A stretch of DNA of 64,000 nucleotides from an uncultured Eubacteriales bacterium. GTDB lineage: Bacteria > Bacillota > Clostridia > Monoglobales > CAYZNM01. Under the pieces are notes generated by a model that saw nothing but the letters and a program-made list of their open reading frames with translations, made no database searches and had not been told where the DNA came from. A program made the translations under genes and the position numbers. How positions within the stretch are numbered: the stretch's first letter is position 1; the number at the start of each line of letters is the position of its first letter. Of the stretch, positions 41,674 through 53,325 are shown piece by piece. The stretch spans positions 4,565 to 68,564 of the forward strand of contig CAYZNM010000006.1 of the NCBI GenBank assembly GCA_964479875.1, given 5' to 3'.

Positions 41674-41831
41674 GTTAACACCTCCATAAAAATAAAAAAA
41701 GCGTGAAGCCATAAGACGTCACACCACACCAAAATTGCTATCCTAAGTAACCGCAAAGCCCTTGCCGTACGGTGAGAAGTGTGACTTCTTCTTGCATTAT
41801 CCATGATAGCACATTGCTGCGCGTTTGTCAA
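41674..41831 (-). promoter_or_regulatory. infC operon promoter plus structured leader (candidate L20-responsive attenuator)
   Basis: On the minus strand: TTGACA (41826-41831) -17- TATCAT (41803-41808). A leader of about 120 nt ends in a GTGTGA...TCACGC hairpin followed by TTTTTTTATTTTTA just before the infC RBS. Confidence 0.45.
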
Positions 41832-41865
41832 CATAAATTTTCCACGGTGCTTGCGCGCAAATAAA

Positions 41866-41886
41866 AAGGGCGGGGTGTCCGCCCTT
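41866..41886 (-). terminator. terminator after the 589-aa surface protein gene
   Basis: AAGGGCGG-ggtgt-CCGCCCTT hairpin, with a T-run on the minus strand. Confidence 0.65.
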
Positions 41887-41891
41887 GAAAT

Positions 41892-43661
41892 TTATTTTGT
41901 GCTGCTCATCTTTCTTTTGAGAACGACTGCGCCTGTTATTGACGCAAGACCTAGCAGTGAGAATAACAGCATTCTGTTGTTGTCGCCTGTGTAGGGGACT
42001 TCCGGTTCAAGGCCGCCTAGTGGGATTAGTCCGTCAAGGATGTCGAAGTCCTCGAAGTCGAAGTCCTCAAGGCTTGTGCCTTCGGGCAGGTCGAGGTAAC
42101 CCAGCGGCACTCCGTTTTCGTCTAGCACTACAAAGTCGCCGTTTTCATTTTGTGTTATGGTGAAGCTTCTGCCGTTTTGCTCAACTGTGCGTTGTGTTTG
42201 AACGTTTTGCTGTTGTTGCGTATTTTCCTCTGTTGCAGGCTCTTGAGAAGGTTCGGGGGATGTGGATTCCTCCGGCTCGGAAGATTCCTCGGGTGTTGTA
42301 GATTCTTCGGGGGTTGATGATTCCTCAGGCTCTTCCGTGATGGAAGGTACGGTTATGTCAGGCGTCGAGGAAGGCGCAGGAGTGGGGCGTCTTGAAGGCG
42401 TGGGAGATGCGCTCGGCGATGCAGAGGGCGATTCGGCCGGCTCGTCGGAAGGAGTTACTTCTGGAGATTCACTCGGTGTGGGTTCGGGAGATTCGGACGG
42501 CGTAGTCGAAGTAGACGCACTCGGCGTGGGTGTGGGTGTTGCCGATGAAGATGCACTCGGTGTCGGCGTAGGTGTTGCTGTTGAAGATGAGCTCGGTGTG
42601 GGTGTGGGAACCGCCTTCTTTATTCCGGATAAGTCATACATTACGAATGCAGGGTTGCAGGAGATGTCGCCGTTATGCTTGTGATAGCATTCTTTAACAT
42701 GCTGATGGGTTGTGTCGGTAATTTTGCATACCAAATCAGTAGTATCGTATTTTTCATTAGCGGCATAAATTACCAGCTTGATGAAGCCGTCATTTTTTAT
42801 CTTATCAAGCAACGCACTGTCTTTTATGGTTATATCTTTGCTTCCTATTTGTTGCCAATTATCCCAGTCTACGTATTTCTGCGATAAATCACCGAATACT
42901 TCCTTGAGCTTACCTACATCTTCTGTTTTTCCGTCGTATTCATTTTTAAGAGTGCCCGATTGCCCAACGTATACGCCGTTTACAAATGCAATCCAAGCGT
43001 TGTCCGCTGCGATTGTTAATTTTAAATTTTCTTCGAGGTATAGGGGTTTATCCTTAACATCGATTGTATGTGTAACTTTAATTACGTCGCCGGAGGTTGG
43101 GTTTTTTACATCGCTTGATTCCCAGATTTTTTCCGCGCCGTTTGCTGTAAGCTCATCATACTTTTCCTTGCCGCCAATGTCTTGCAAGCCTTTATCCCAT
43201 GTATCGTTGTTAAACTCTTGGTTCGGCTTATCATTTATCGGGTAGTCCGTTTTTGTACTGTCGTGGTCGTCTTCGTTTTCAGTGCCTTCATCTGTTTGCC
43301 CAATTACAGCAGGGGCAGGTGTTGCTGTTGAATCGGCAGGAGCTAGCGTTTCTTTCGGTCGAGGATTGCCTTGGTCGTCCTTGTCAATCGTCGTTACAGC
43401 ACCTGTAACGTTTTCAACAGTAATCGTGCCTTCTGTTTTTGTTGAATCCGTTGTGCTGATAACCTTAACGTCCTCGATGTTCACTTCCTTGGAATCGAGT
43501 TTAATATTCTCGTTGACAGCGATATATAAATCCAATTGCACTTGAGTTGAAGTTTCGGAATCACTGCCATCTCCATTTTCTGCCAAGATGTATATAGGCA
43601 CAAGCGCAGTTATCATGCTGATAACCAGCAACATCGCTAAAAATCTGTATCCCTTTTTCAT
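41892..43661 (-). CDS. cell-surface protein with signal peptide, beta-sandwich-like domain, Pro/Thr/Ser linker and VPYTGD sortase-type anchor
   Basis: 589 aa. N-terminal signal MKKGYRFLAMLLVISMITALVPIYILA. PT/S-rich linker. C-terminus ...LEPEVPYTGDNNRMLLFSLLGLASITGAVVLKRKMSSTK (motif, hydrophobic stretch, basic tail). Confidence 0.85.
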   Translation of the reverse strand: MKKGYRFLAMLLVISMITALVPIYILAENGDGSDSETSTQVQLDLYIAVNENIKLDSKEVNIEDVKVISTTDSTKTEGTITVENVTGAVTTIDKDDQGNPRPKETLAPADSTATPAPAVIGQTDEGTENEDDHDSTKTDYPINDKPNQEFNNDTWDKGLQDIGGKEKYDELTANGAEKIWESSDVKNPTSGDVIKVTHTIDVKDKPLYLEENLKLTIAADNAWIAFVNGVYVGQSGTLKNEYDGKTEDVGKLKEVFGDLSQKYVDWDNWQQIGSKDITIKDSALLDKIKNDGFIKLVIYAANEKYDTTDLVCKITDTTHQHVKECYHKHNGDISCNPAFVMYDLSGIKKAVPTPTPSSSSTATPTPTPSASSSATPTPTPSASTSTTPSESPEPTPSESPEVTPSDEPAESPSASPSASPTPSRRPTPAPSSTPDITVPSITEEPEESSTPEESTTPEESSEPEESTSPEPSQEPATEENTQQQQNVQTQRTVEQNGRSFTITQNENGDFVVLDENGVPLGYLDLPEGTSLEDFDFEDFDILDGLIPLGGLEPEVPYTGDNNRMLLFSLLGLASITGAVVLKRKMSSTK

Positions 43662-43763
43662 TTTACATTACCTCCGTTCAGTTGTGCTGCTATTGTATAT
43701 TTATTATAGCAACCAAAAGTTACATTATGGTGACAAATTGGGTTTTATTGTATTTAAATAAAA

Positions 43764-43795
43764 GCAAAAAGAAGCAGGCAATTGCTGCTTCTTTT
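43764..43795 (-). terminator. terminator after the 900-aa surface protein gene
   Basis: GAAGCAG-gcaattg-CTGCTTC perfect hairpin flanked by A/T runs. Confidence 0.65.
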
Positions 43796-43841
43796 ATGAG
43801 GCAATGAAACTAACTTAGCGAATTTTTAATTCTAGGATAAT

Positions 43842-46544
43842 TTATTTTTGTTGGTTAAGCTTGCGCTTTAGCAGGAATGCGCCTGCGACCGAAACTAGGC
43901 CGGCTAGTGCGTAGAAGGAAGCATTGCTGCTGTCGCCTGTGTAGGGTACAGGCTCGGGTTCGGACTCAAGGCCGCCTAGCGGAATCAGTCCGTCCATGAT
44001 GTCGAACTCTTCAAAGTCGAAATCTTCAAGGGCTGTGCCTTCGGGAAGCTCGAGGTAACCGAGAGGTATGCCGTTTTCGTCAAGCACCATTACCGTGCCG
44101 TCGTCGTTTTGTTGAAGCGTGAGGTCGCGGTTGTTTTGTGTAACGGCGCGTTGCTGTGTGGGCTGCTCGTTTTGTGTTTGTGTTGTTGGGGCTGGGCTTT
44201 CGCTTGGTTGAGCAGGTTCGTTGGTGGGTTCGTCTGTCTGCTCATCTCTCGGTTCGTCTGTCGGCTCTGGTTCATCTGTGGCTTCTGGTTGTTCTGTTAC
44301 AGTAGGACCTACTATTTCAGGTGAAGCAGAGGGCGAAGGAGCAGGACTAGTTGAAGCCGATGGGCTGGGGCTAGGGCTTTCGCTTGCTTCCGTCGAGGGA
44401 GAAGGCGATGGGCTTGGGCTTTCGCTTACTTCAGGGGAAGGCGATGGGCTAGTTGAAGCGGATGGGCTTGGGCTTGTTGATGTTGCAGGCGTTGTATCTA
44501 CGTTTCTAACGTAGAGGAAGTTTATGGTATTGCCGTTTTCTGCAACTGTTACTGTTTGAGCTTCAGCGCCCTGTAATGTGAAGCCTGTTTTGTTTATTGC
44601 GTTTGCCGTGAAGGGCTTGCCTACTTCCTTGCCTGTTCTTGTGAAGTTGTCAACTTGATTCGTTGTGCCTACGGCAGGGTTTGCGTCGATCGTGCGGTAT
44701 GTGTGGATTTCAAGCACGTCGGCCGTAAGTGCTGCAAGCGTTATTACTTTTTCATATACAACCGTTAGCTCTAAGCCCTTTTCAGCAGTGCGCGTTAAGC
44801 TTGTGTCGGTGTTTTTCGCCTTGCTGTTGGTTGTTACGTTTACGAGCTTGTATTCCGCGTCCGCTTTGGAAGTGATTTCAAACTCTTTGCCGTCTGTCAG
44901 GCCTGTAATAGTATCAGTGCTGCCCTTTGCTGTAACCTTATTTCTCGAAACAAGAGCACCTGTGTGGTTGTTTGTTACGTCGTAGAATTCATGGGTTACA
45001 GGAACACTGTATGAAGATATGTTCGTTACCTTGTGGTATTCGATTGTTATTTCTTGGTTCTTGTTGGCAGTTGTTGGGATTGTACCTTGTAATTCATAGC
45101 CATAACTAGTTTTATTTAAAATTGATATGCTTTCGTTATCATTTTTAACTGTTAAGCTATCAGTTGATTTTAGTTCTTCGTTTTCCTCTCTTGCAGTTTC
45201 TGAACCATCTACTTTTGTTACATCATAGTATTTATGATGTACTGTCACAGGGTAAGTGGGTGTTGGGTCGTACACATATCTGATTTCCAACTCGTATCCA
45301 TATTGCGTTTTTGCAAAATCACCAATTGAAGTCGGAAAGGCAGTTACTCTCTTATAAGTTTTCGAGCCATCCACGTATTGTGCGCTGTTGATAACATTCT
45401 TTAAAACCCCATTTTCAAAGTTGCTAAGAGGAATACCATAAAACCCTTGGTTTCCGTTAGGATAGTATCCTTTTTTTACCTCTACGCCATTCTCAACTTC
45501 ATATAAAAAGTGGTCAACGTAAAAGTCGTACTTTGTAGAATTCATTACATACTGTATTGTAAACTCTTCTCCGCCATATACGTAGTAGGAAGAAGAACCG
45601 CTTATTGAACCGCCGTTTTGCAGGTATGAGTATGGCGAGTATGTCTTTCCGTCATTATCGTGCCTTTGGTAGTCCATCGGAGTTATAAATTGATACGGAG
45701 AAGGCCTCTGAGTTTTAAAAGGAACGATTTGCTCAAAAGTACCTTTTTTATTGCCTGGTGTTACTGAACCCTCGTAATACTCATGTGTAATCTTAACTTG
45801 GAATTCGTAATCTTCACAAACGTTATGAACGTATTCGAGGTTGATTACGTTTTGGCTAGTGTCAGATGATACTTGATGTTTAGTTATTGAGGTTTTTAAT
45901 ACAAAGGGTTCATCACAGTCGTGGCTTTTGCTTATTGCAGTTGGGGTGAAATCACTTCCTACTTCCTGATCCTCGAAAGTTTCAGGTACTGTTTCGGTTG
46001 AAACAACCGGATTCTTGTTGCTGCCGCTTCCTGTTCCGAATGTGTTTACAACTTTGTAAATGTGATTTACAGTAACGGTGGAGGTAGATGGAATTGCAGC
46101 CGCAAACGGAGTCATGCCTAGAGCAGCCATGCCCATTTCAGGAAGGTCCTCTTCTGCTTCTTCTTCATCGTCTGCTTCAAGGGATTCTTTTTCGTCGGCT
46201 ACCTCGTCTGATCCTTTTTCTGTTTCTTCTTCGATTACTTGATGGTTGCTTTTATCGTCAGATTCGTTGTCGATTACTTCTTCCTCTTCGTCGGAGAGTT
46301 CTTCATCTACTTTCTCTTCTTCGTTGGCTTCTTCATTGGTTGTGTCATCTTCCGATTCTTCGGTTTCATCAATGGTTGTATCGTCAATTGTGTCGTCAGC
46401 CGCATCTTCAGCCTTGTCGATTATTTGCAAAGCGGCAGATTCTTCGTCAACTTCGTCGGCGAAAACTACGCTGTTTATCGGCATGAATGCTGACAGCACG
46501 CAAACAGATAGGAGAATCGCTAAGTACCTTTTTAAGTTTTTCAT
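43842..46544 (-). CDS. large cell-surface adhesin-like protein with acidic N-terminal region, repeated beta domains, PS-rich linker and VPYTGD sortase-type anchor
   Basis: 900 aa. Signal MKNLKRYLAILLSVCVLSAFMPINSVVFA. A D/E-rich segment. At least 5 repeats beginning V.V.H.YY-like (VNHIYKV, ITHEYYEG, VHHKYYDV, VTHEFYDV, EIHTYRT). C-terminus ...PEPVPYTGDSSNASFYALAGLVSVAGAFLLKRKLNQQK. Confidence 0.85.
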   Translation of the reverse strand: MKNLKRYLAILLSVCVLSAFMPINSVVFADEVDEESAALQIIDKAEDAADDTIDDTTIDETEESEDDTTNEEANEEEKVDEELSDEEEEVIDNESDDKSNHQVIEEETEKGSDEVADEKESLEADDEEEAEEDLPEMGMAALGMTPFAAAIPSTSTVTVNHIYKVVNTFGTGSGSNKNPVVSTETVPETFEDQEVGSDFTPTAISKSHDCDEPFVLKTSITKHQVSSDTSQNVINLEYVHNVCEDYEFQVKITHEYYEGSVTPGNKKGTFEQIVPFKTQRPSPYQFITPMDYQRHDNDGKTYSPYSYLQNGGSISGSSSYYVYGGEEFTIQYVMNSTKYDFYVDHFLYEVENGVEVKKGYYPNGNQGFYGIPLSNFENGVLKNVINSAQYVDGSKTYKRVTAFPTSIGDFAKTQYGYELEIRYVYDPTPTYPVTVHHKYYDVTKVDGSETAREENEELKSTDSLTVKNDNESISILNKTSYGYELQGTIPTTANKNQEITIEYHKVTNISSYSVPVTHEFYDVTNNHTGALVSRNKVTAKGSTDTITGLTDGKEFEITSKADAEYKLVNVTTNSKAKNTDTSLTRTAEKGLELTVVYEKVITLAALTADVLEIHTYRTIDANPAVGTTNQVDNFTRTGKEVGKPFTANAINKTGFTLQGAEAQTVTVAENGNTINFLYVRNVDTTPATSTSPSPSASTSPSPSPEVSESPSPSPSPSTEASESPSPSPSASTSPAPSPSASPEIVGPTVTEQPEATDEPEPTDEPRDEQTDEPTNEPAQPSESPAPTTQTQNEQPTQQRAVTQNNRDLTLQQNDDGTVMVLDENGIPLGYLELPEGTALEDFDFEEFDIMDGLIPLGGLESEPEPVPYTGDSSNASFYALAGLVSVAGAFLLKRKLNQQK

Positions 46545-46712
46545 AATATTTTCCTTTCTATATGGTTACAATATCCCTCTTGTAACTTTAACCTTGTATA
46601 TTCAGTTTAGCATTCAAAAGTTACAAAACGGTTTCATTTGGACAATTTTTATTCAGTTTTTTACTATTTTTTCAAGATACTTTTATGTAAAAAAAGAGGG
46701 CGTGTGCCCCCT

Positions 46713-47882
46713 TTAATTTGCAAGCTTAAAGATGTCGACTATCTCGGCTTTGTCTAGCTCGATGTAGGACGGAAGCTTGCGTTTGCCTTGATTTGTGCAG
46801 CTTTCGGCCATGGGCTCGAATGCGGACTCGGGTATGCCAAGCTCGCGCATTGTCGTGGGCATGTGCAGCTCGCGGAAGAATTGCTCGGTGCGCGATATGC
46901 CCTCTAGGGCAAGCTGCTCGTCGTTATCGCCCGATATGCCCCATACATTTTTCGCATACTGCGCGAACCGTAAAGTATTGTACCTATACACATACTTCGC
47001 CCACGCAGGGAACGCTACGGATAATCCTGCGGCGTGTGCTACGTTGTCGTAGAAGCCGCTGATTTCATGCTCAAGCTGATGGCATACGAAAAAGAAGTTG
47101 CGGCCTGCACCTGTAAGCTCGTTGTGCGACAGGCTGCCTGCCCACATTAGAGTGGCGCGTGCGTCGTAGTCGCGCGGATTTTGCATTGCGGCGCGTCCTG
47201 CGTTGATTACGGCTTTCAGCAAGCCCTCGGCGATATTATCCGTAAGCTCAGTCGGCGGATAGTCGCCGAAATAACGCTCAAGCGTGTGCATCATTATGTC
47301 AACTACGCCGCACGCTGTTTGGTATGCGTCCACGGTATAGGTGAGCTCAGGGTTGCATATCGCAAACAGCGGACGGTTGTACGGCGAATTGTATCCGCGC
47401 TTTAGCCCAATCTCATCGTTGGTGATAACGCAGGATTGGCTCATCTCGCTGCCGGAAGCCGAAAGCGTAAGCACCACGCCTACAGGCAGCGCAGCCGCAG
47501 GCTCTGCCTGCCGCGAGTTAAACAGCCACGGGTCGCAATCTGCGACAGCTCCTGCCGCAATCGACTTCGCGCTGTCAATCGCACTGCCGCCGCCTACTGC
47601 AAGCACAAGCTGCACGCCATTGTCGCGGCACAACTTCACGCCCTCGCGCACAAGCGACAGCTTCGGATTAGGCTCAACTCCGCCCAATTCCACGAACGAA
47701 ACTCCCGCTGCGTTAAGCGACTGCACTACCGCGTCGTATATGCCAAATTTTTTAACGCTGCCCTTGCCGTAATGCAGTAAAACCTTTGTAAAGCCATAAG
47801 ACTTTACAACCTCGCCAACCTTAGTATGCGTGTCTTTTCCAAAAATTACATTCGTCGGCGTGTAAAATACAAAGTCTTTCAT
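46713..47882 (-). CDS. iron-containing (group III) alcohol dehydrogenase
   Basis: 389 aa. GGGSAIDSAK NAD(P) motif and a His-rich metal site (HQLEHEISGFYDNVAHAAG). Resembles butanol/1,2-propanediol dehydrogenases. Confidence 0.88.
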   Translation of the reverse strand: MKDFVFYTPTNVIFGKDTHTKVGEVVKSYGFTKVLLHYGKGSVKKFGIYDAVVQSLNAAGVSFVELGGVEPNPKLSLVREGVKLCRDNGVQLVLAVGGGSAIDSAKSIAAGAVADCDPWLFNSRQAEPAAALPVGVVLTLSASGSEMSQSCVITNDEIGLKRGYNSPYNRPLFAICNPELTYTVDAYQTACGVVDIMMHTLERYFGDYPPTELTDNIAEGLLKAVINAGRAAMQNPRDYDARATLMWAGSLSHNELTGAGRNFFFVCHQLEHEISGFYDNVAHAAGLSVAFPAWAKYVYRYNTLRFAQYAKNVWGISGDNDEQLALEGISRTEQFFRELHMPTTMRELGIPESAFEPMAESCTNQGKRKLPSYIELDKAEIVDIFKLAN

Positions 47883-47891
47883 CTATACCTC

Positions 47892-48383
47892 CTATTTTAA
47901 ATTCACTCGTTTGCTGTTGCTCGCGTAGCCGTGGCAGATTGCAATAGCAATCGCGTCCGCCGTATCGTCAGGCTTGGGCGTTTCTGCCAATTTCAAAATC
48001 GTCTTCACCATATACTGCACCTGCTTCTTATCCGCCCTGCCATAACCTGTTACGGCTTGCTTAACTTGCAGCGGCGTGTACTCGTACACCGAAAGCCCAT
48101 TGTTCGCACCTGAAAGCAGCAGCACGCCACGCGCCTGCCCTACCATTATCGCAGTTTTCGCGTTGTCGTTGAAGAACAATTCCTCAATCGCCATGCACTC
48201 AGGCTTGTACCGCTCGATGATGTAGCACATGTCTTCGTATATCATTTTAAGGCGCACGTGCATGTCGGTCTTGGGCGGACTTTCGACTATGCCGTACTCG
48301 ATAGGGCGATACTTGCGCCCCTCGTAATCGAGCACGGCAAAGCCTACGGTCGCAAGCCCAGGGTCTACGCCTAGGATTCGCAT
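47892..48383 (-). CDS. ruvC: crossover junction endodeoxyribonuclease RuvC
   Basis: MRILGVDPGLATVGFAVL..., ...DDTADAIAIAICH. Canonical RuvC catalytic residues. Confidence 0.95.
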   Translation of the reverse strand: MRILGVDPGLATVGFAVLDYEGRKYRPIEYGIVESPPKTDMHVRLKMIYEDMCYIIERYKPECMAIEELFFNDNAKTAIMVGQARGVLLLSGANNGLSVYEYTPLQVKQAVTGYGRADKKQVQYMVKTILKLAETPKPDDTADAIAIAICHGYASNSKRVNLK

Positions 48384-49618
48384 TTGCGCACGATGTCCAT
48401 TACGGCGTTGTTCCAGTCGATTATGCGCTGCGGCTCGTACATACAGGTGCTTACGTCCTTTAGTATAAACTCCACAGGCGTGCCGTATTTATTGCAAGCT
48501 TCAATCGTTTTCTTTATGTCGTTTTTCACAAGGTCGATGTCGAAGGTGCTTCCGCTTAAGAATGCGGGGTTCGGCTTGTTGGATACAACGTAAGCGTCGC
48601 CCATTTGGCGCGCTGCGTTGTCAACGTCTGCCCACGGGCTCATTGAGATTTTGCGCACGTTTTTGATTCGCTTGATTATTTCTATTTTCCTATCTAAAGG
48701 CTCACAGCAGCCGTAGTACACATGCCCGAAGTCCGCGTAATAGGGCAGTGCGTACTCTATCTCGAACTCATTGTGCATATCGGGCGACACAGCCGAAAAC
48801 ATCTGCGCCATTCCCGCAACCCACGTATCGGCAGGAGTAGGCTTTTCTTCATTATAATTACCGCTTGGCAAATCATAGCAATGCGCGCCGCTGCAATGCA
48901 CCAAATCAGGTGCGGCAGTTAGTGCGCCAAGCTCAATCAATTGCCGCTTTTGCTCAAACGCCATGTCTGCGAACTTGCGCACTGTCTTATGCACAAATTC
49001 GGGGCGGTCAAGCATATCGTACAGCACAGCAGTAACCGAGCGATACTTCGATATCTCGTCCCACGGAATAAACATAGTTGCAACGCCGCCTATGCGTATC
49101 GGCAGGATATCGCCGAATATATCGTGCAGCATGTCGTGAGTAGCCTTTGTCGCCTGCTCATCGTGATACAAATCGGGCAGCAGCAGCTTTTCGAGCGATT
49201 CCTCGTCGGGCAGCGTATCGTGGTATTCGTGGCTCACAACGTCGTTGCGCGCATCGAAAGTCTTAATGCTCTCATCCACGAAATTAACCTCGTTGCGATT
49301 GCGTATCGCCTTGGTTATCTCAAAGTACGGGCGCACAACCATATCGCCCGAAAAATTGCGCCACTTAAAAATAGTGCGGCGCAGCGAACCCTCGACCCAA
49401 TGCAAGTCCTTGTTCTCGCATTGCAGCACAAGATAATCGCACTTCGCTTCAAGCTCACCCCACGGCAATTGGTCAAGCATAACCATCGGCCGCACAGGCT
49501 TTAACGCATTAATCCGCTTCCACAGCTCAACAATTTCCGCCTGAATCGGCAGCGCGGCAATTTCCGCGACATCAGTCGCAAGCGCGCGCAGTATATCCCT
49601 ATCCTTTTGATTTATCAT
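48371..49618 (-). CDS. hypothetical protein, possibly URO-D-like TIM-barrel family
   Basis: About 415 aa. The ATG at 49618 is preceded by GGGGG (the track uses TTG 49624). The stop overlaps the ruvC start by 13 nt. Family assignment rests on weak recollection only. Confidence 0.6.
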   Translation of the reverse strand: MINQKDRDILRALATDVAEIAALPIQAEIVELWKRINALKPVRPMVMLDQLPWGELEAKCDYLVLQCENKDLHWVEGSLRRTIFKWRNFSGDMVVRPYFEITKAIRNRNEVNFVDESIKTFDARNDVVSHEYHDTLPDEESLEKLLLPDLYHDEQATKATHDMLHDIFGDILPIRIGGVATMFIPWDEISKYRSVTAVLYDMLDRPEFVHKTVRKFADMAFEQKRQLIELGALTAAPDLVHCSGAHCYDLPSGNYNEEKPTPADTWVAGMAQMFSAVSPDMHNEFEIEYALPYYADFGHVYYGCCEPLDRKIEIIKRIKNVRKISMSPWADVDNAARQMGDAYVVSNKPNPAFLSGSTFDIDLVKNDIKKTIEACNKYGTPVEFILKDVSTCMYEPQRIIDWNNAVMDIVRKCES

Positions 49619-49671
49619 AAACAACCCCCATATATAAATATAATTTATTATACCACACTAAAAAATAAAAT

Positions 49672-51818: not shown

Positions 51819-52694
51819 TTATTCAAAATCTATTTGTACTTCGTACCAATAATTTTGTTCTGTTAAATAATCATTATTCCTGCTTTCAACTATATGTAGT
51901 TTCCATGAAATAAGTATCAAAACAAACATAATGAGTATAATTGCATTAGTGAATATAAATGGCTTTAGCTTTGGTTCATCAGCTTTCCTTACCAACCTAT
52001 CTATGTAGTAAAATAAGCCAAAAAGCATATTGATAATAACAAAACCTATCAATAATACAATAAAGGCCACTCGATAAATAGATGATTGATGAAAATTTTC
52101 AAGCACCGAAGTTGAAAAAGCTATACCGGCAGTAAATGCTAATACAACAGCAGCAAAAATCCCCAGAATAGCAATATACTCTTTTTGTGAGCTTCTTAAT
52201 TTATCGTCCACACCTTTAATATCTTGCTTAAGCTTTCGCGCCTCACTATTGAATGAATTAATTTGAGACTTTACATCGTCCAAACTATCATCCTTCAAAA
52301 GCTCCCTTTCCACCTTGTCCCAATATGTTAATCTTGCCAATTCAAGGCTTACATGGTCATATAACTTCTTTAGGTTATCACTTATATCTATCAATTCCCC
52401 ATTAGTTTCTTTATTCAATGGTCGATAACCACTTATAATTAGTAATAGATTTTGTCCAAGAATATCTGTATTACCAATCTTATCTCCTTGCTTGATGTCG
52501 GTCAATACAACAAATATATCGGAATAGAAATGCCGAAACTCTTTATTCTTATCTTTGGAATAATATAGATTTTCTAGTCTTCGATAAAAAGATGCACGAT
52601 CGCTTTTATTCGATAGTGCATCTTGGGTCTCACTTAACTCATATAAAATTTTCTTTAATTCTTCTCTATGCTTTTGTTCGTCATTCCACAGCAT
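51819..52694 (-). CDS. uncharacterised 291-aa protein: helical/coiled-coil N-terminal region plus 3 C-terminal TM helices (candidate toxin/effector partner of the Panacea-domain gene)
   Basis: Very AT-rich ORF starting 5 nt after the DUF4065 gene stop. TM segments YIAILGIFAAVVLAFTAGIAF, IYRVAFIVLLIGFVIINMLFGLFYYI and FIFTNAIILIMFVLILISW. No recognised catalytic motif. Confidence 0.75.
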   Translation of the reverse strand: MLWNDEQKHREELKKILYELSETQDALSNKSDRASFYRRLENLYYSKDKNKEFRHFYSDIFVVLTDIKQGDKIGNTDILGQNLLLIISGYRPLNKETNGELIDISDNLKKLYDHVSLELARLTYWDKVERELLKDDSLDDVKSQINSFNSEARKLKQDIKGVDDKLRSSQKEYIAILGIFAAVVLAFTAGIAFSTSVLENFHQSSIYRVAFIVLLIGFVIINMLFGLFYYIDRLVRKADEPKLKPFIFTNAIILIMFVLILISWKLHIVESRNNDYLTEQNYWYEVQIDFE

Positions 52695-52699
52695 AAAAA

Positions 52700-53113
52700 T
52701 TACCCCAATTTTTTTATTAAATACAGAGGAATTACTCCGTGGTTTCCACGACCTTCATCGTAAATTTTAGCCCATGCACCATTTTGTTTATGAGTATCCT
52801 TCACCATATCCCATGGATTTAATTCTCGTTTTTCCTCTATAATACAATCTATGCGATTATCTAAAATTTGAACGTTATCATACTTTGTAGAAATAGGCAT
52901 AGCTCCGTGACCAGAGAAATGATAATATACATTCGGTACAACCGGACCAAACTGCCATGCTTCGATGTCATCAGAAAAGGCCTGTTCATTTCGCTCTAAG
53001 AAATCCTTTTGTATATAATACAAAATCTTCTGAAGTTGCAAGTTGCTAATTGGGCAACCATCGTTATAACACTTTGTTACTATATACTTAGATAATTCAA
53101 GTGCAGAATACAT
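52700..53113 (-). CDS. Panacea (DUF4065, SocA/GepA-like) domain protein, putative antitoxin
   Basis: MYSALELSKYIV...NLQLQKILYYIQKDFLERNEQAFSDDIEAWQFGPVVPNVYYHF matches the DUF4065 core (LQKLLYY.Q....f.d.ieAW.yGPVv..vY). GGAGGG RBS 6 nt before the ATG at 53113. Confidence 0.8.
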   Translation of the reverse strand: MYSALELSKYIVTKCYNDGCPISNLQLQKILYYIQKDFLERNEQAFSDDIEAWQFGPVVPNVYYHFSGHGAMPISTKYDNVQILDNRIDCIIEEKRELNPWDMVKDTHKQNGAWAKIYDEGRGNHGVIPLYLIKKLG

Positions 53114-53155
53114 ACATTGCCCTCCATTCGTTTCAAGTTTTATTACCACAGTTCT

Positions 53156-53184
53156 ATTATATTCTATTTATTTGATTTTGTCAA
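53156..53184 (-). promoter_or_regulatory. consensus sigma-A promoter of the DUF4065 two-gene module
   Basis: On the minus strand: TTGACA (53179-53184) -17- TATAAT (53156-53161). Confidence 0.6.
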
Positions 53185-53196
53185 CAAAAAAATAAA

Positions 53197-53239
53197 CACA
53201 AATAAAACCTAATACTTGCTAATAGGTTTTATTTGTGTT
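53197..53239 (-). terminator. long perfect hairpin terminator after tRNA-Arg
   Basis: ACACAAATAAAACCTA-loop-TAGGTTTTATTTGTGT, followed on the minus strand by TTTATTTTTTT. Confidence 0.7.
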
Positions 53240-53249
53240 ACAATATCTT

Positions 53250-53325
53250 TGGCGTGCCTGGCAGGATTTGAACCTGCGACCTACTGATTCGTAGTCAGTC
53301 ACTCTATCCGCTGAGCTACAAGCAC
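53250..53325 (-). tRNA. tRNA-Arg (anticodon ACG), CCA encoded
   Basis: Minus strand GTGCTTGTAGCTCAGCGGATAGAGTGACTGACTACGAATCAGTAGGTCGCAGGTTCAAATCCTGCCAGGCACGCCA. It folds as a cloverleaf: acceptor GTGCTTG/CAGGCAC, anticodon loop CTACGAA, T-arm GCAGG-TTCAAAT-CCTGC. Confidence 0.92.

What the first reader, a model, noticed from the sequence alone, without database searches (positions are those of the whole stretch)
41892..46625. Paralogous surface proteins with a non-canonical VPYTGD sorting signal, a shared C-terminal pre-anchor module of about 90 aa, and a shared promoter box
Both genes (589 aa and 900 aa) end with nearly the same module.
- 589 aa: ...QRTVEQNGRSFTITQNENGDFVVLDENGVPLGYLDLPEGTSLEDFDFEDFDILDGLIPLGGLEPEVPYTGD + hydrophobic stretch + KRK.
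- 900 aa: ...QRAVTQNNRDLTLQQNDDGTVMVLDENGIPLGYLELPEGTALEDFDFEEFDIMDGLIPLGGLESEPEPVPYTGD + hydrophobic stretch + KRK.

The anchor motif is VPYTG rather than LPxTG, which implies a dedicated sortase specificity. No sortase gene lies in this window.

Upstream of the module each protein has a Pro/Ser/Thr linker encoded by degenerate tandem DNA repeats. The passenger regions are unrelated: a single beta-sandwich-like domain in one, and an acidic region plus at least 5 repeats starting V.V.H.YY in the other.

The two promoters share a box of about 30 bp (TGTAACTTTTGAATGCTAAACTGAATATACAA and TGTAACTTTTGGTTGCTATAATAAATATACAA; plus-strand positions 46596-46625 and 43693-43724). It includes an extended -10 (TGcTAAACT / TGcTATAAT), suggesting co-regulation.

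The conserved acidic DFDFE(D/E)FDI(L/M)DGLIPLGG segment just before the anchor is not a feature I can assign to a known domain.
Basis: partly seen in the sequence, partly recalled or inferred. Interest (0 to 1): 0.55.

Follow-up and report, generated by a model that had tools for sequence, protein, structure and literature searches.

The report
Paired wall-anchored proteins, new pre-anchor domain
Two neighbouring genes of an uncultured gut-type Clostridia bacterium encode ordinary sortase-type cell-wall surface proteins, but both carry, just before the anchor, a small acidic folded domain from a family that no database describes.

Summary
Two minus-strand genes (589 aa, 41892-43661; 900 aa, 43842-46544) share four things:
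- a Sec signal peptide;
- a Pro/Ser/Thr linker;
- a C-terminal module of about 100 aa (64% identical);
- the ending VPYTGD + hydrophobic stretch + KRK.

Each gene has its own terminator and a shared 32-bp promoter box (27/32 identical; the best of 300 shuffles reached 24).

The interpretation needs correcting in one place. VPYTGD is not a new kind of signal. The module belongs to a family of at least 40 proteins from metagenomes of uncultured Clostridia, and it always lies 2-45 aa before an xPxTG[D] sorting signal. Position 1 of that signal is N (25 of 37), S, V, I or L, and it changes between closely related modules. This matches known clostridial class B signals ((S/P)PxTG, NPxTG) and pilin signals (VPDTG, IPQTG).

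The module core (about 63 aa) has these properties:
- no significant match in Pfam, NCBIfam or PDB;
- a confident predicted fold (pLDDT 80-84), a four-stranded beta-meander;
- strongly acidic and nearly free of Lys and Arg;
- under purifying selection (dN/dS 0.25).

Its function is unknown. My best guess is a wall-proximal or sortase-recognition domain. The window holds no sortase; the rest of the genome could not be checked.

The parts
43842..46544 (-). Gene for the 900-aa surface protein. Layout: signal peptide aa 1-29; acidic region aa 30-~150; six divergent repeats aa ~157-690; PST/acidic linker aa 691-797; module; sorting signal.
   Evidence: ORF. The same protein is found in four Logan assemblies and one NCBI contig. 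TIGR01167 LPXTG_anchor scores 18.9 bits against a cut-off of 15.9.
44475..46076 (-). Six divergent repeats of about 80-95 aa (x-V-x-V-x-H-x-Y ... I-x-x-x-Y-V). Possibly MucBP-like.
   Evidence: Repeat alignment A4: H7, Y71 and V72 are invariant. The last repeat matches Pfam MucBP below threshold (E 0.035, 15.3 bits against 23).
43965..44153 (-). Pre-anchor module core of the 900-aa protein (aa 798-860, QRAVTQ...IPLGGLE).
   Evidence: AF2 pLDDT is about 90 over this stretch. Direct repeat D1.
43860..43949 (-). Cell-wall sorting signal of the 900-aa protein: VPYTGD + hydrophobic stretch + KRK.
46594..46625 (-). Promoter box of the 900-aa gene: TGTAACTTTTGAATGCTAAACTGAATATACAA, with TGn-extended -10 TGcTAAACT and no -35. 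It ends 49 nt before the ATG.
43767..43795 (-). Intrinsic terminator after the 900-aa gene.
   Evidence: 11-bp stem followed by a T run.
41892..43661 (-). Gene for the 589-aa surface protein. Layout: signal peptide aa 1-27; orphan passenger aa 28-345; PST/acidic linker aa 346-489; module; sorting signal.
   Evidence: ORF. NCBI calls it from M10 (580 aa). GGAGG lies 8 nt before the upstream ATG.
42006..42194 (-). Pre-anchor module core of the 589-aa protein (aa 490-552).
   Evidence: dN/dS against the 900-aa copy is 0.25, with dS 0.82.
41910..41999 (-). Cell-wall sorting signal of the 589-aa protein: VPYTGD + hydrophobic stretch + KRK.
   Evidence: TIGR01167 scores 13.6 bits and PF00746 15.6 bits, both below their cut-offs.
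43693..43724 (-). Promoter box of the 589-aa gene: TGTAACTTTTGGTTGCTATAATAAATATACAA, with TGcTATAAT. It ends 31 nt before the ATG.
41866..41886 (-). Intrinsic terminator after the 589-aa gene. The infC promoter follows it.

Best explanation
**What the genes are**
These are two tandem genes for sortase-anchored cell-wall proteins, probably adhesins, in an uncultured spore-forming Clostridia bacterium. Each gene is transcribed on its own. Each protein has these parts, in order:
- a Sec signal peptide;
- a passenger region that differs between the two proteins;
- a long Pro/Ser/Thr/Glu linker, which would span the wall;
- an acidic beta-domain of about 63 aa;
- a tripartite sorting signal (VPYTGD, hydrophobic stretch, KRK).

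**How it most likely works**
A sortase encoded elsewhere cleaves between T and G and joins the Thr to peptidoglycan. Judging from relatives, it is most likely a housekeeping class B-type enzyme, as in C. difficile. VPYTGD is a position-1 variant of the [N/S/V/I]PxTG[D] signals used throughout the family that carries this domain. It is not a new signal type.

The domain is a member of an undescribed family that always sits directly before such signals, on many kinds of passenger. After anchoring it would be the wall-proximal base of the protein. I infer that it either helps the sortase recognise or position the substrate, or interacts with the wall. Neither role is shown.

The two genes share a constrained 32-bp element that holds a TGn-extended -10, so they are probably co-regulated.

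**Shown:** the sequence architecture, the existence of the family, the predicted fold and the selective constraint.

**Inferred:** sortase dependence, sortase class, the domain's function and co-regulation.
For: **Architecture and paralogy.**

**Anchor models.** TIGR01167 passes for the 900-aa protein. It matches 12 of 16 family members.

**The family.**
- Full HMMER against 1.84 billion representative proteins finds relatives whose match is always C-terminal.
- A metagenome scan adds 28 loci.
- 37 unique members have a spacer of 2-45 aa (median 13) between module and signal. Signal position 1 is N 25, S 5, V 3, I 3, A 1. Position 6 is D in 32 of 37.
- Long members carry Cna_B, FctA, SpaA, Flg_new, MucBP or DUF7601 passengers.

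**Sortases near members.** A class B sortase (TIGR03064, 184.7 bits) lies 3 kb upstream of an NPGTGE member. A class C sortase (NF033745, 241 bits) lies directly upstream of another member.

**Fold.** AF2 gives pLDDT 84 and 80, with about 90 over the core: four antiparallel strands, then a short helix and a strand.

**Constraint.** dN/dS is 0.25 with dS 0.82. The module is 24% D+E and 2% K+R.

**Promoter box and terminators.**

**Literature.** C. difficile SrtB is a class B housekeeping sortase. It cleaves (S/P)PxTG between T and G and works better when the downstream native residues are included, as in the peptide SDSPKTGDN (PMC4155245). B. anthracis SrtB needs residues beyond the pentapeptide (PMC11987632).
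Against: - No sortase gene lies in the 64-kb window, and the rest of the genome could not be read.
- The 589-aa protein scores below the anchor-model cut-offs.
- The variable spacer (2-45 aa) argues against a fixed geometric coupling between the domain and the sortase active site.
- Most family members have no sortase nearby.
- There is no experimental data for any member.
- The passenger functions are unknown. MucBP is matched only below threshold.
Confidence: 0.72

Rival explanations
1. The proteins are pilus subunits polymerised by a class C sortase. V/I/Y-PxTG signals are typical of pilins, and the module would be part of the pilin base.
For: - VPDTG, IPQTG and YPRTG are the signals of the S. 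pneumoniae pilins (PMC5640630).
- One family member (L091) lies directly after a class C sortase, which itself follows another substrate's C-terminus.
- Several members carry FctA, SpaA or Cna_B pilin-type domains.
Against: - No sortase of any class lies next to the two window genes.
- Each gene is monocistronic between terminators.
- Neither protein matches FctA, SpaA or Cna_B.
- The module has no Lys that could act as a nucleophile.
- Most members have NPxTGD and no adjacent sortase.
Confidence: 0.1
2. The C-terminus is only a transmembrane anchor. The xPxTG-like sequence is not processed, and the proteins stay in the membrane.
For: - No sortase lies in the window.
- The 589-aa protein falls below the TIGR01167 and Pfam cut-offs.
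- In C. difficile some proteins with SPSTG or SPQTG are not processed by sortase (PMC5569036).
Against: - P, T, G and D of the motif are kept in 32-37 of 37 family members, while the hydrophobic stretch varies freely.
- The motif-TM-basic tail arrangement is the canonical sorting signal.
- Sortases are present in relatives' contigs.
Confidence: 0.08
3. The module is a regulated release or cleavage site, or a non-covalent wall- or cation-binding domain. It would act after anchoring, not during sortase recognition. The model is ZmpI/PPEP-1 cleavage just upstream of the anchor in C. difficile adhesins.
For: - The title and abstract of PMC4591827 (listed) report that ZmpI protease-mediated cleavage controls the surface exposure of C. 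difficile sortase substrates. That the cuts fall just before the anchor is my recollection; I did not open the paper.
- The module is highly acidic (24% D+E) and tethered by a spacer of variable length.
- The G-W...W-x-I-F-D-x-x-G hairpin pattern looks like cell-wall-binding or WG-type repeats. This rests on my own reading of the sequences only.
Against: - The module has no Pro-Pro cleavage motif of the PPEP type.
- It is predicted to be a compact fold, not a linker.
- It has no Pfam hit to CW_binding or WG repeats.
- No structural match has E below 0.09.
Confidence: 0.1

Closest known systems
LPXTG-type sortase substrates (TIGR01167 / Pfam PF00746 Gram_pos_anchor)
   Same: N-terminal signal peptide. 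C-terminal pentapeptide, then a hydrophobic stretch, then a basic tail. A Pro-rich wall-spanning linker. Variable passenger.
   Different: Position 1 is Val, not Leu. A conserved folded acidic domain lies directly before the signal. Only one of the two proteins reaches the TIGR01167 cut-off.
Clostridial class B (housekeeping) sortase substrates: C. difficile SrtB (S/P)PxTG; NCBIfam NF033846 'Rumino_NPXTG'; TIGR03063 srtB_target
   Same: The PxTG core is followed by D, as in SPKTGD(N) of C. difficile. The family that shares the module mostly uses NPxTGD or SPxTGD. A class B sortase is found near one member.
   Different: The window proteins have V at position 1 and do not match NF033846 or TIGR03063. 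The published substrates are not described as having this pre-anchor domain.
NCBIfam NF033073 'doubled motif LPXTG anchor domain'
   Same: The weak alignment covers the '...IPLGG...xPxTG + TM' part in 9 of 16 members. That is an upstream hydrophobic-P-L-G motif followed by the sorting motif.
   Different: Scores are 13-23 bits against a cut-off of 48. The beta-meander part (DENGVPLG...LPEG) is not covered.
Pilin sorting signals of S. pneumoniae RrgA/B/C (YPRTG, IPQTG, VPDTG)
   Same: A non-Leu hydrophobic residue at position 1, including Val.
   Different: No adjacent class C sortase, no pilin-type domains, and monocistronic genes.

Membership tests
Sortase-anchored (LPXTG-type) cell-wall protein | N-terminal Sec signal peptide | tested here: met
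   By inspection. The 900-aa protein starts MKNLKRYLAILLSVCVLSAFMPINSVVFA|DE and the 589-aa protein starts MKKGYRFLAMLLVISMITALVPIYILA|EN. No signal-peptide predictor was available.
Sortase-anchored (LPXTG-type) cell-wall protein | C-terminal xPxTG motif, then a hydrophobic stretch, then a basic tail | tested here: met
   The regex scan of the six-frame translation finds exactly these two cases.
Sortase-anchored (LPXTG-type) cell-wall protein | Score at or above the curated cut-off of TIGR01167 / PF00746 | tested here: inconclusive
   TIGR01167 (cut-off 15.9): the 900-aa protein scores 18.9 and passes; the 589-aa protein scores 13.6 and fails. PF00746 (cut-off 20): 19.5 and 15.6, so both fail.
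Sortase-anchored (LPXTG-type) cell-wall protein | A sortase encoded in the same genome | not testable with these tools
   None lies in the 64-kb window.
NPXTG-anchored / sortase B targets (NF033846, TIGR03063) | Asn at position 1 and an HMM score above the cut-off | tested here: not met
   The window proteins have Val and do not match either model. Among relatives, 5 of 16 match NF033846 and one passes (25.2 bits against 23.5).
Doubled-motif LPXTG anchor (NF033073) | HMM score of at least 48 bits | tested here: not met
   13.2 bits for the whole protein and 19.4 bits for the fragment. The best relative scores 22.6.
Pilin (class C sortase substrate) | Adjacent class C sortase and pilin-type domains (FctA/SpaA/Cna_B) | tested here: not met
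   No sortase in the window. No such Pfam domains in either protein.
MucBP repeat adhesin (PF06458) | Repeats scoring at least 23 bits | tested here: not met
   The best repeat scores 15.3 bits (E 0.035), a second scores 9.2 bits, and the other four score nothing.
Any described domain, for the pre-anchor module | A significant match in Pfam, NCBIfam, PDB sequences or PDB folds | tested here: not met
   Pfam and NCBIfam give only anchor models. The PDB profile search has a best E of 0.16. Foldseek has a best E of 0.095 and 0.15, and the local resemblance is only to single beta-propeller blades.

The most novel reading that the evidence does not exclude
The acidic beta-domain of about 63 aa is a folded extension of the sorting signal. 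It would be a docking or positioning domain read by the housekeeping (class B-type) sortase of this group of Clostridia. Substrate choice would then be set by a domain rather than by the pentapeptide, which would explain why position 1 of the pentapeptide drifts freely (N/S/V/I/L) in the family.
Probability: 0.15. Interest if true: 0.6.

Novelty: new variant of a known kind. Interest (0 to 1): 0.35.

Why it matters
Sortase substrates are usually recognised by a pentapeptide plus a membrane-retention signal. Here a conserved, folded, acidic domain always sits next to the signal in at least 40 large adhesin- or pilin-like proteins of uncultured gut Clostridia, and it is absent from the domain databases.

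This matters in three ways:
- It would give annotators a new marker for surface proteins in these poorly known bacteria.
- If the domain contributes to sortase recognition or wall insertion, it would extend what counts as a sorting signal.
- It could be useful for sortase-based protein ligation.

Otherwise the locus is an ordinary pair of paralogous wall-anchored proteins.

Tried and rejected
**Searches that found little or nothing**
- The word-indexed homologue search with the 103-aa module found nothing.
- The same search with the whole 900-aa protein found only the protein itself.
- With the family profile it found only 6 proteins.
- The genome-collection scan with the module patterns found no relative.
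- The second genome scan, with IF3, returned 80 Oscillospirales-like loci. The syntenic regions hold no sortase substrates, so the two genes are not conserved at this position in relatives.
- tblastn of the passengers against all fetched loci gave nothing. tblastn of the 589-aa passenger against plasmids also gave nothing. Both passengers remain orphans.
- Literature searches for the NCBIfam model names and for the SRA run numbers found nothing.

**Hits rejected as spurious**
- HMMER hits P0005, P0013, P0017 and P0020 are repeat proteins (SprB-like, WD40 and others). Weak per-repeat similarity is summed in them.

**Ideas considered and dropped**
- An invertible or shuffling promoter: there are no inverted repeats around the boxes.
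- A sporulation-sigma reading of the box (its ATACAAT part): only loose resemblance, and I recalled the consensus from memory.
- The module as a leftover of a recent duplication: rejected because synonymous sites are near saturation (dS 0.8-1.1) and the module exists in many other proteins.
- An RNA element: Rfam finds none in the region.
Full report
**1.

The region contains two minus-strand ORFs, 41892-43661 (589 aa) and 43842-46544 (900 aa).
- BLASTP aligns their C-terminal 158 residues at 53% identity (E 2e-46). The signal peptides align weakly (E 0.001). Nothing aligns between these two ends.
- The last 100-103 residues are 64% identical.
- Both proteins end VPYTGD + 17-18 hydrophobic residues + KRK. 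These are the only such ends in the six-frame translation of the window.
- Each gene is followed by an intrinsic terminator (43767-43795 and 41866-41886). The upstream alcohol-dehydrogenase gene also ends in one (46693-46714). The two genes are therefore separate transcription units.
- Short tandem DNA repeats lie in both Pro/Ser/Thr linkers.
- The 900-aa protein has six divergent repeats of about 80-95 aa. The last one matches Pfam MucBP below threshold (E 0.035).
- The 589-aa passenger matches nothing.

**2. The promoter box is real and constrained**

- The 32-nt boxes at 46594-46625 and 43693-43724 are 27/32 identical. In 300 shuffles of the two intergenic regions the best match averaged 19.4 and never exceeded 24.
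- A 3-mismatch search finds only these two copies in 64 kb, with none expected.
- Synonymous sites in the homologous coding parts are close to saturation: dS is 0.82 in the module, 1.0 in the anchor and 1.1 in the signal peptide. A neutral 32-nt stretch would not stay 84% identical at that divergence, so the box is under selection.
- The box holds a TGn-extended -10 (TGcTAAACT / TGcTATAAT) and has no -35 at a proper spacing.
- Conservation also covers about 11 nt upstream (TGTAACTTTTG) and about 10 nt downstream of the -10. This may be a factor-binding site that overlaps the promoter. That reading is inference.
- There are no inverted repeats of the kind that flank invertible promoters.

**3. 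The organism**

- The same locus occurs in four Logan assemblies (SRR10912415-18) and on a 159.5-kb NCBI contig.
- Neighbouring genes include YunB and a small acid-soluble spore protein, so the organism forms spores.
- Its IF3 is at most 64% identical to the best of 598 matches among GTDB species representatives. All the best matches are Clostridia or Oscillospirales-type MAGs.
- None of 80 syntenic infC regions in those relatives holds a sortase substrate.

**4. The module is a family, not a private duplication**

- A full HMMER search of 1.84 billion representative proteins with the two-sequence profile found about 15 real relatives. In each, the match is at the C-terminus. Four repeat proteins among the hits were rejected as spurious.
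- A metagenome scan added 28 loci.
- The consensus reads as follows: an acidic/aromatic stretch, then (I/V)PL(A/S)NGW(F)A..DG.W.IFDENGVPLG.I.LPEG..IE(D/E)YD...LIPL(G/A), then a spacer, then xPxTG(D), then a hydrophobic stretch and a basic tail.
- Among 37 unique members the spacer is 2-45 aa (median 13). Signal position 1 is N 25, S 5, V 3, I 3, A 1, and three further variants have LPATG. Position 5 is G in 34 of 37 and position 6 is D in 32 of 37. The module is 24% Asp+Glu and 2% Lys+Arg.
- The window's two copies are the most divergent members. Their nearest relative is 51-57% identical. They lack the first IPL-NGW part.
- Long members carry Cna_B, FctA, SpaA, Flg_new, MucBP or DUF7601/DUF5979 passengers. 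The module is thus a cassette shared by many adhesin- or pilin-like proteins.

**5. The sorting signal**

- Position 1 changes between close relatives. VPKTGD is nearest to NPGTGE (68% module identity), IPKTGD to NPKTGN (74%), and SPQTGD to NPITGE (70%). Val at position 1 is one state of a labile position and does not by itself call for a dedicated sortase.
- Known signals already cover this range:
  - NPxTG/NPQTN for class B sortases, which also need residues outside the pentapeptide (PMC11987632).
  - (S/P)PxTG for the single housekeeping class B sortase of C. difficile. It cleaves between T and G, and the assay peptide was SDSPKTGDN (PMC4155245).
  - YPRTG, IPQTG and VPDTG for S. pneumoniae pilins (PMC5640630).
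- NCBIfam models behave accordingly. TIGR01167 matches 12 of 16 members, NF033846 'NPXTG-anchored' matches 5 of 16 (one above its cut-off), and srtB_target matches 1 of 16.
- In related contigs a class B sortase (TIGR03064, 184.7 bits) lies 3 kb upstream of one member, and a class C sortase (NF033745, 241 bits) lies directly upstream of another.
- Most members have no sortase nearby, as expected for a housekeeping enzyme.
- The window has none.

**6. The module is not a described domain**

- Pfam and NCBIfam return only anchor models. NF033073 'doubled motif LPXTG' gives a weak partial match of 13-23 bits against a cut-off of 48. That match covers the IPLG...xPxTG part.
- A family-profile search of PDB sequences gives nothing better than E 0.16.
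- AlphaFold2 predicts a confident compact fold. With 16 sequences the mean pLDDT is 84, and about 90 or more over residues 1-50 of the model. With 18 sequences and no membrane helix the mean is 80. The fold has four antiparallel strands, then the acidic stretch with a short helix, then a short strand at GLIPL.
- Foldseek against the PDB finds no match below E 0.09. The best local superpositions are single beta-propeller blades, which is a generic resemblance.
- Between the two paralogs the module core has dN/dS 0.25.

**7. Most likely mechanism**

- Shown: the architecture of a sortase substrate, a conserved folded pre-anchor domain, selective constraint, and a shared promoter element.
- Inferred: Sec export; retention by the hydrophobic stretch and KRK; cleavage of VPYT|G by a sortase encoded elsewhere, probably class B housekeeping type; and linkage to peptidoglycan. 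The long linker would span the wall and the passenger would be displayed.
- The domain would end up at the wall-proximal base. Two facts point to a role tied to anchoring, either substrate recognition or positioning by the sortase, or interaction with the wall:
  - its constant position next to the signal;
  - its independence from passenger type.
- The variable spacer argues against a rigid coupling to the active site.
- Rivals, none of them excluded by experiment:
  - pilin polymerisation by a class C sortase;
  - a plain membrane anchor;
  - a post-anchoring role such as release, or cation or wall binding.

**8. Verdict**

This is an ordinary kind of system, paralogous sortase-type surface proteins. 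Its signal variant lies within known variation. It also carries an undescribed pre-anchor domain family, which is the part worth recording.

Interest is modest. It would rise if the domain proved to be part of what the sortase recognises.

Noticed in passing
window 51819-53325 (-): A SocA_Panacea-domain gene (52700-53113) is followed by a 291-aa gene with no Pfam family (51819-52694). Both lie just downstream of a tRNA gene (53253-53325), in a low-GC stretch (0.39-0.41 against about 0.49). This may be an antitoxin-toxin pair or a small island.
   Followed up: no
window 48371-49624 (-): A 417-aa ORF next to ruvC has no Pfam family on record.
   Followed up: no
L110, L111, L113 (module ORFs): A sub-group of the module family has a Cys-rich stretch (CPCLIGGNCICGDNCSC) before the module and a canonical LPATG signal. 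The module is therefore not tied to non-Leu signals.
   Followed up: partly
L091 72-2235: A pilus-like arrangement. The C-terminus of a substrate (FPETGG + TM) is followed by a class C sortase (283-1137). Next comes a module-bearing protein whose signal reads NAITGD, with Pro replaced by Ala. The contig ends there.
   Followed up: partly
L086-L113 (metagenome loci): All 28 metagenome hits come from a handful of JGI projects (Ga0082212, Ga0123353-6, Ga0209737, Ga0209628, JGI247xx, Ga0154000). I recall these as termite-gut samples but could not verify that with the tools.
   Followed up: no
window 41713-41891 (-): infC has a near-consensus promoter (TTGACA-17-TATCAT with TG, 41831-41803). Rfam finds no L20-leader or other RNA family upstream of the infC-rpmI-rplT genes.
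   Followed up: no
window 46095-46457 (-), aa 30-150 of the 900-aa protein: A very acidic, low-complexity N-terminal region rich in Glu and Asp precedes the repeats. Its role is unknown.
   Followed up: no
window 43971-44030 and 42012-42070 (-): Compared with the family consensus (IEDYD), the two window copies carry a short internal duplication of the acidic/aromatic segment (EDFDF-EEFDI). TRF sees it as a 15-nt repeat at 44001-44029.
   Followed up: partly
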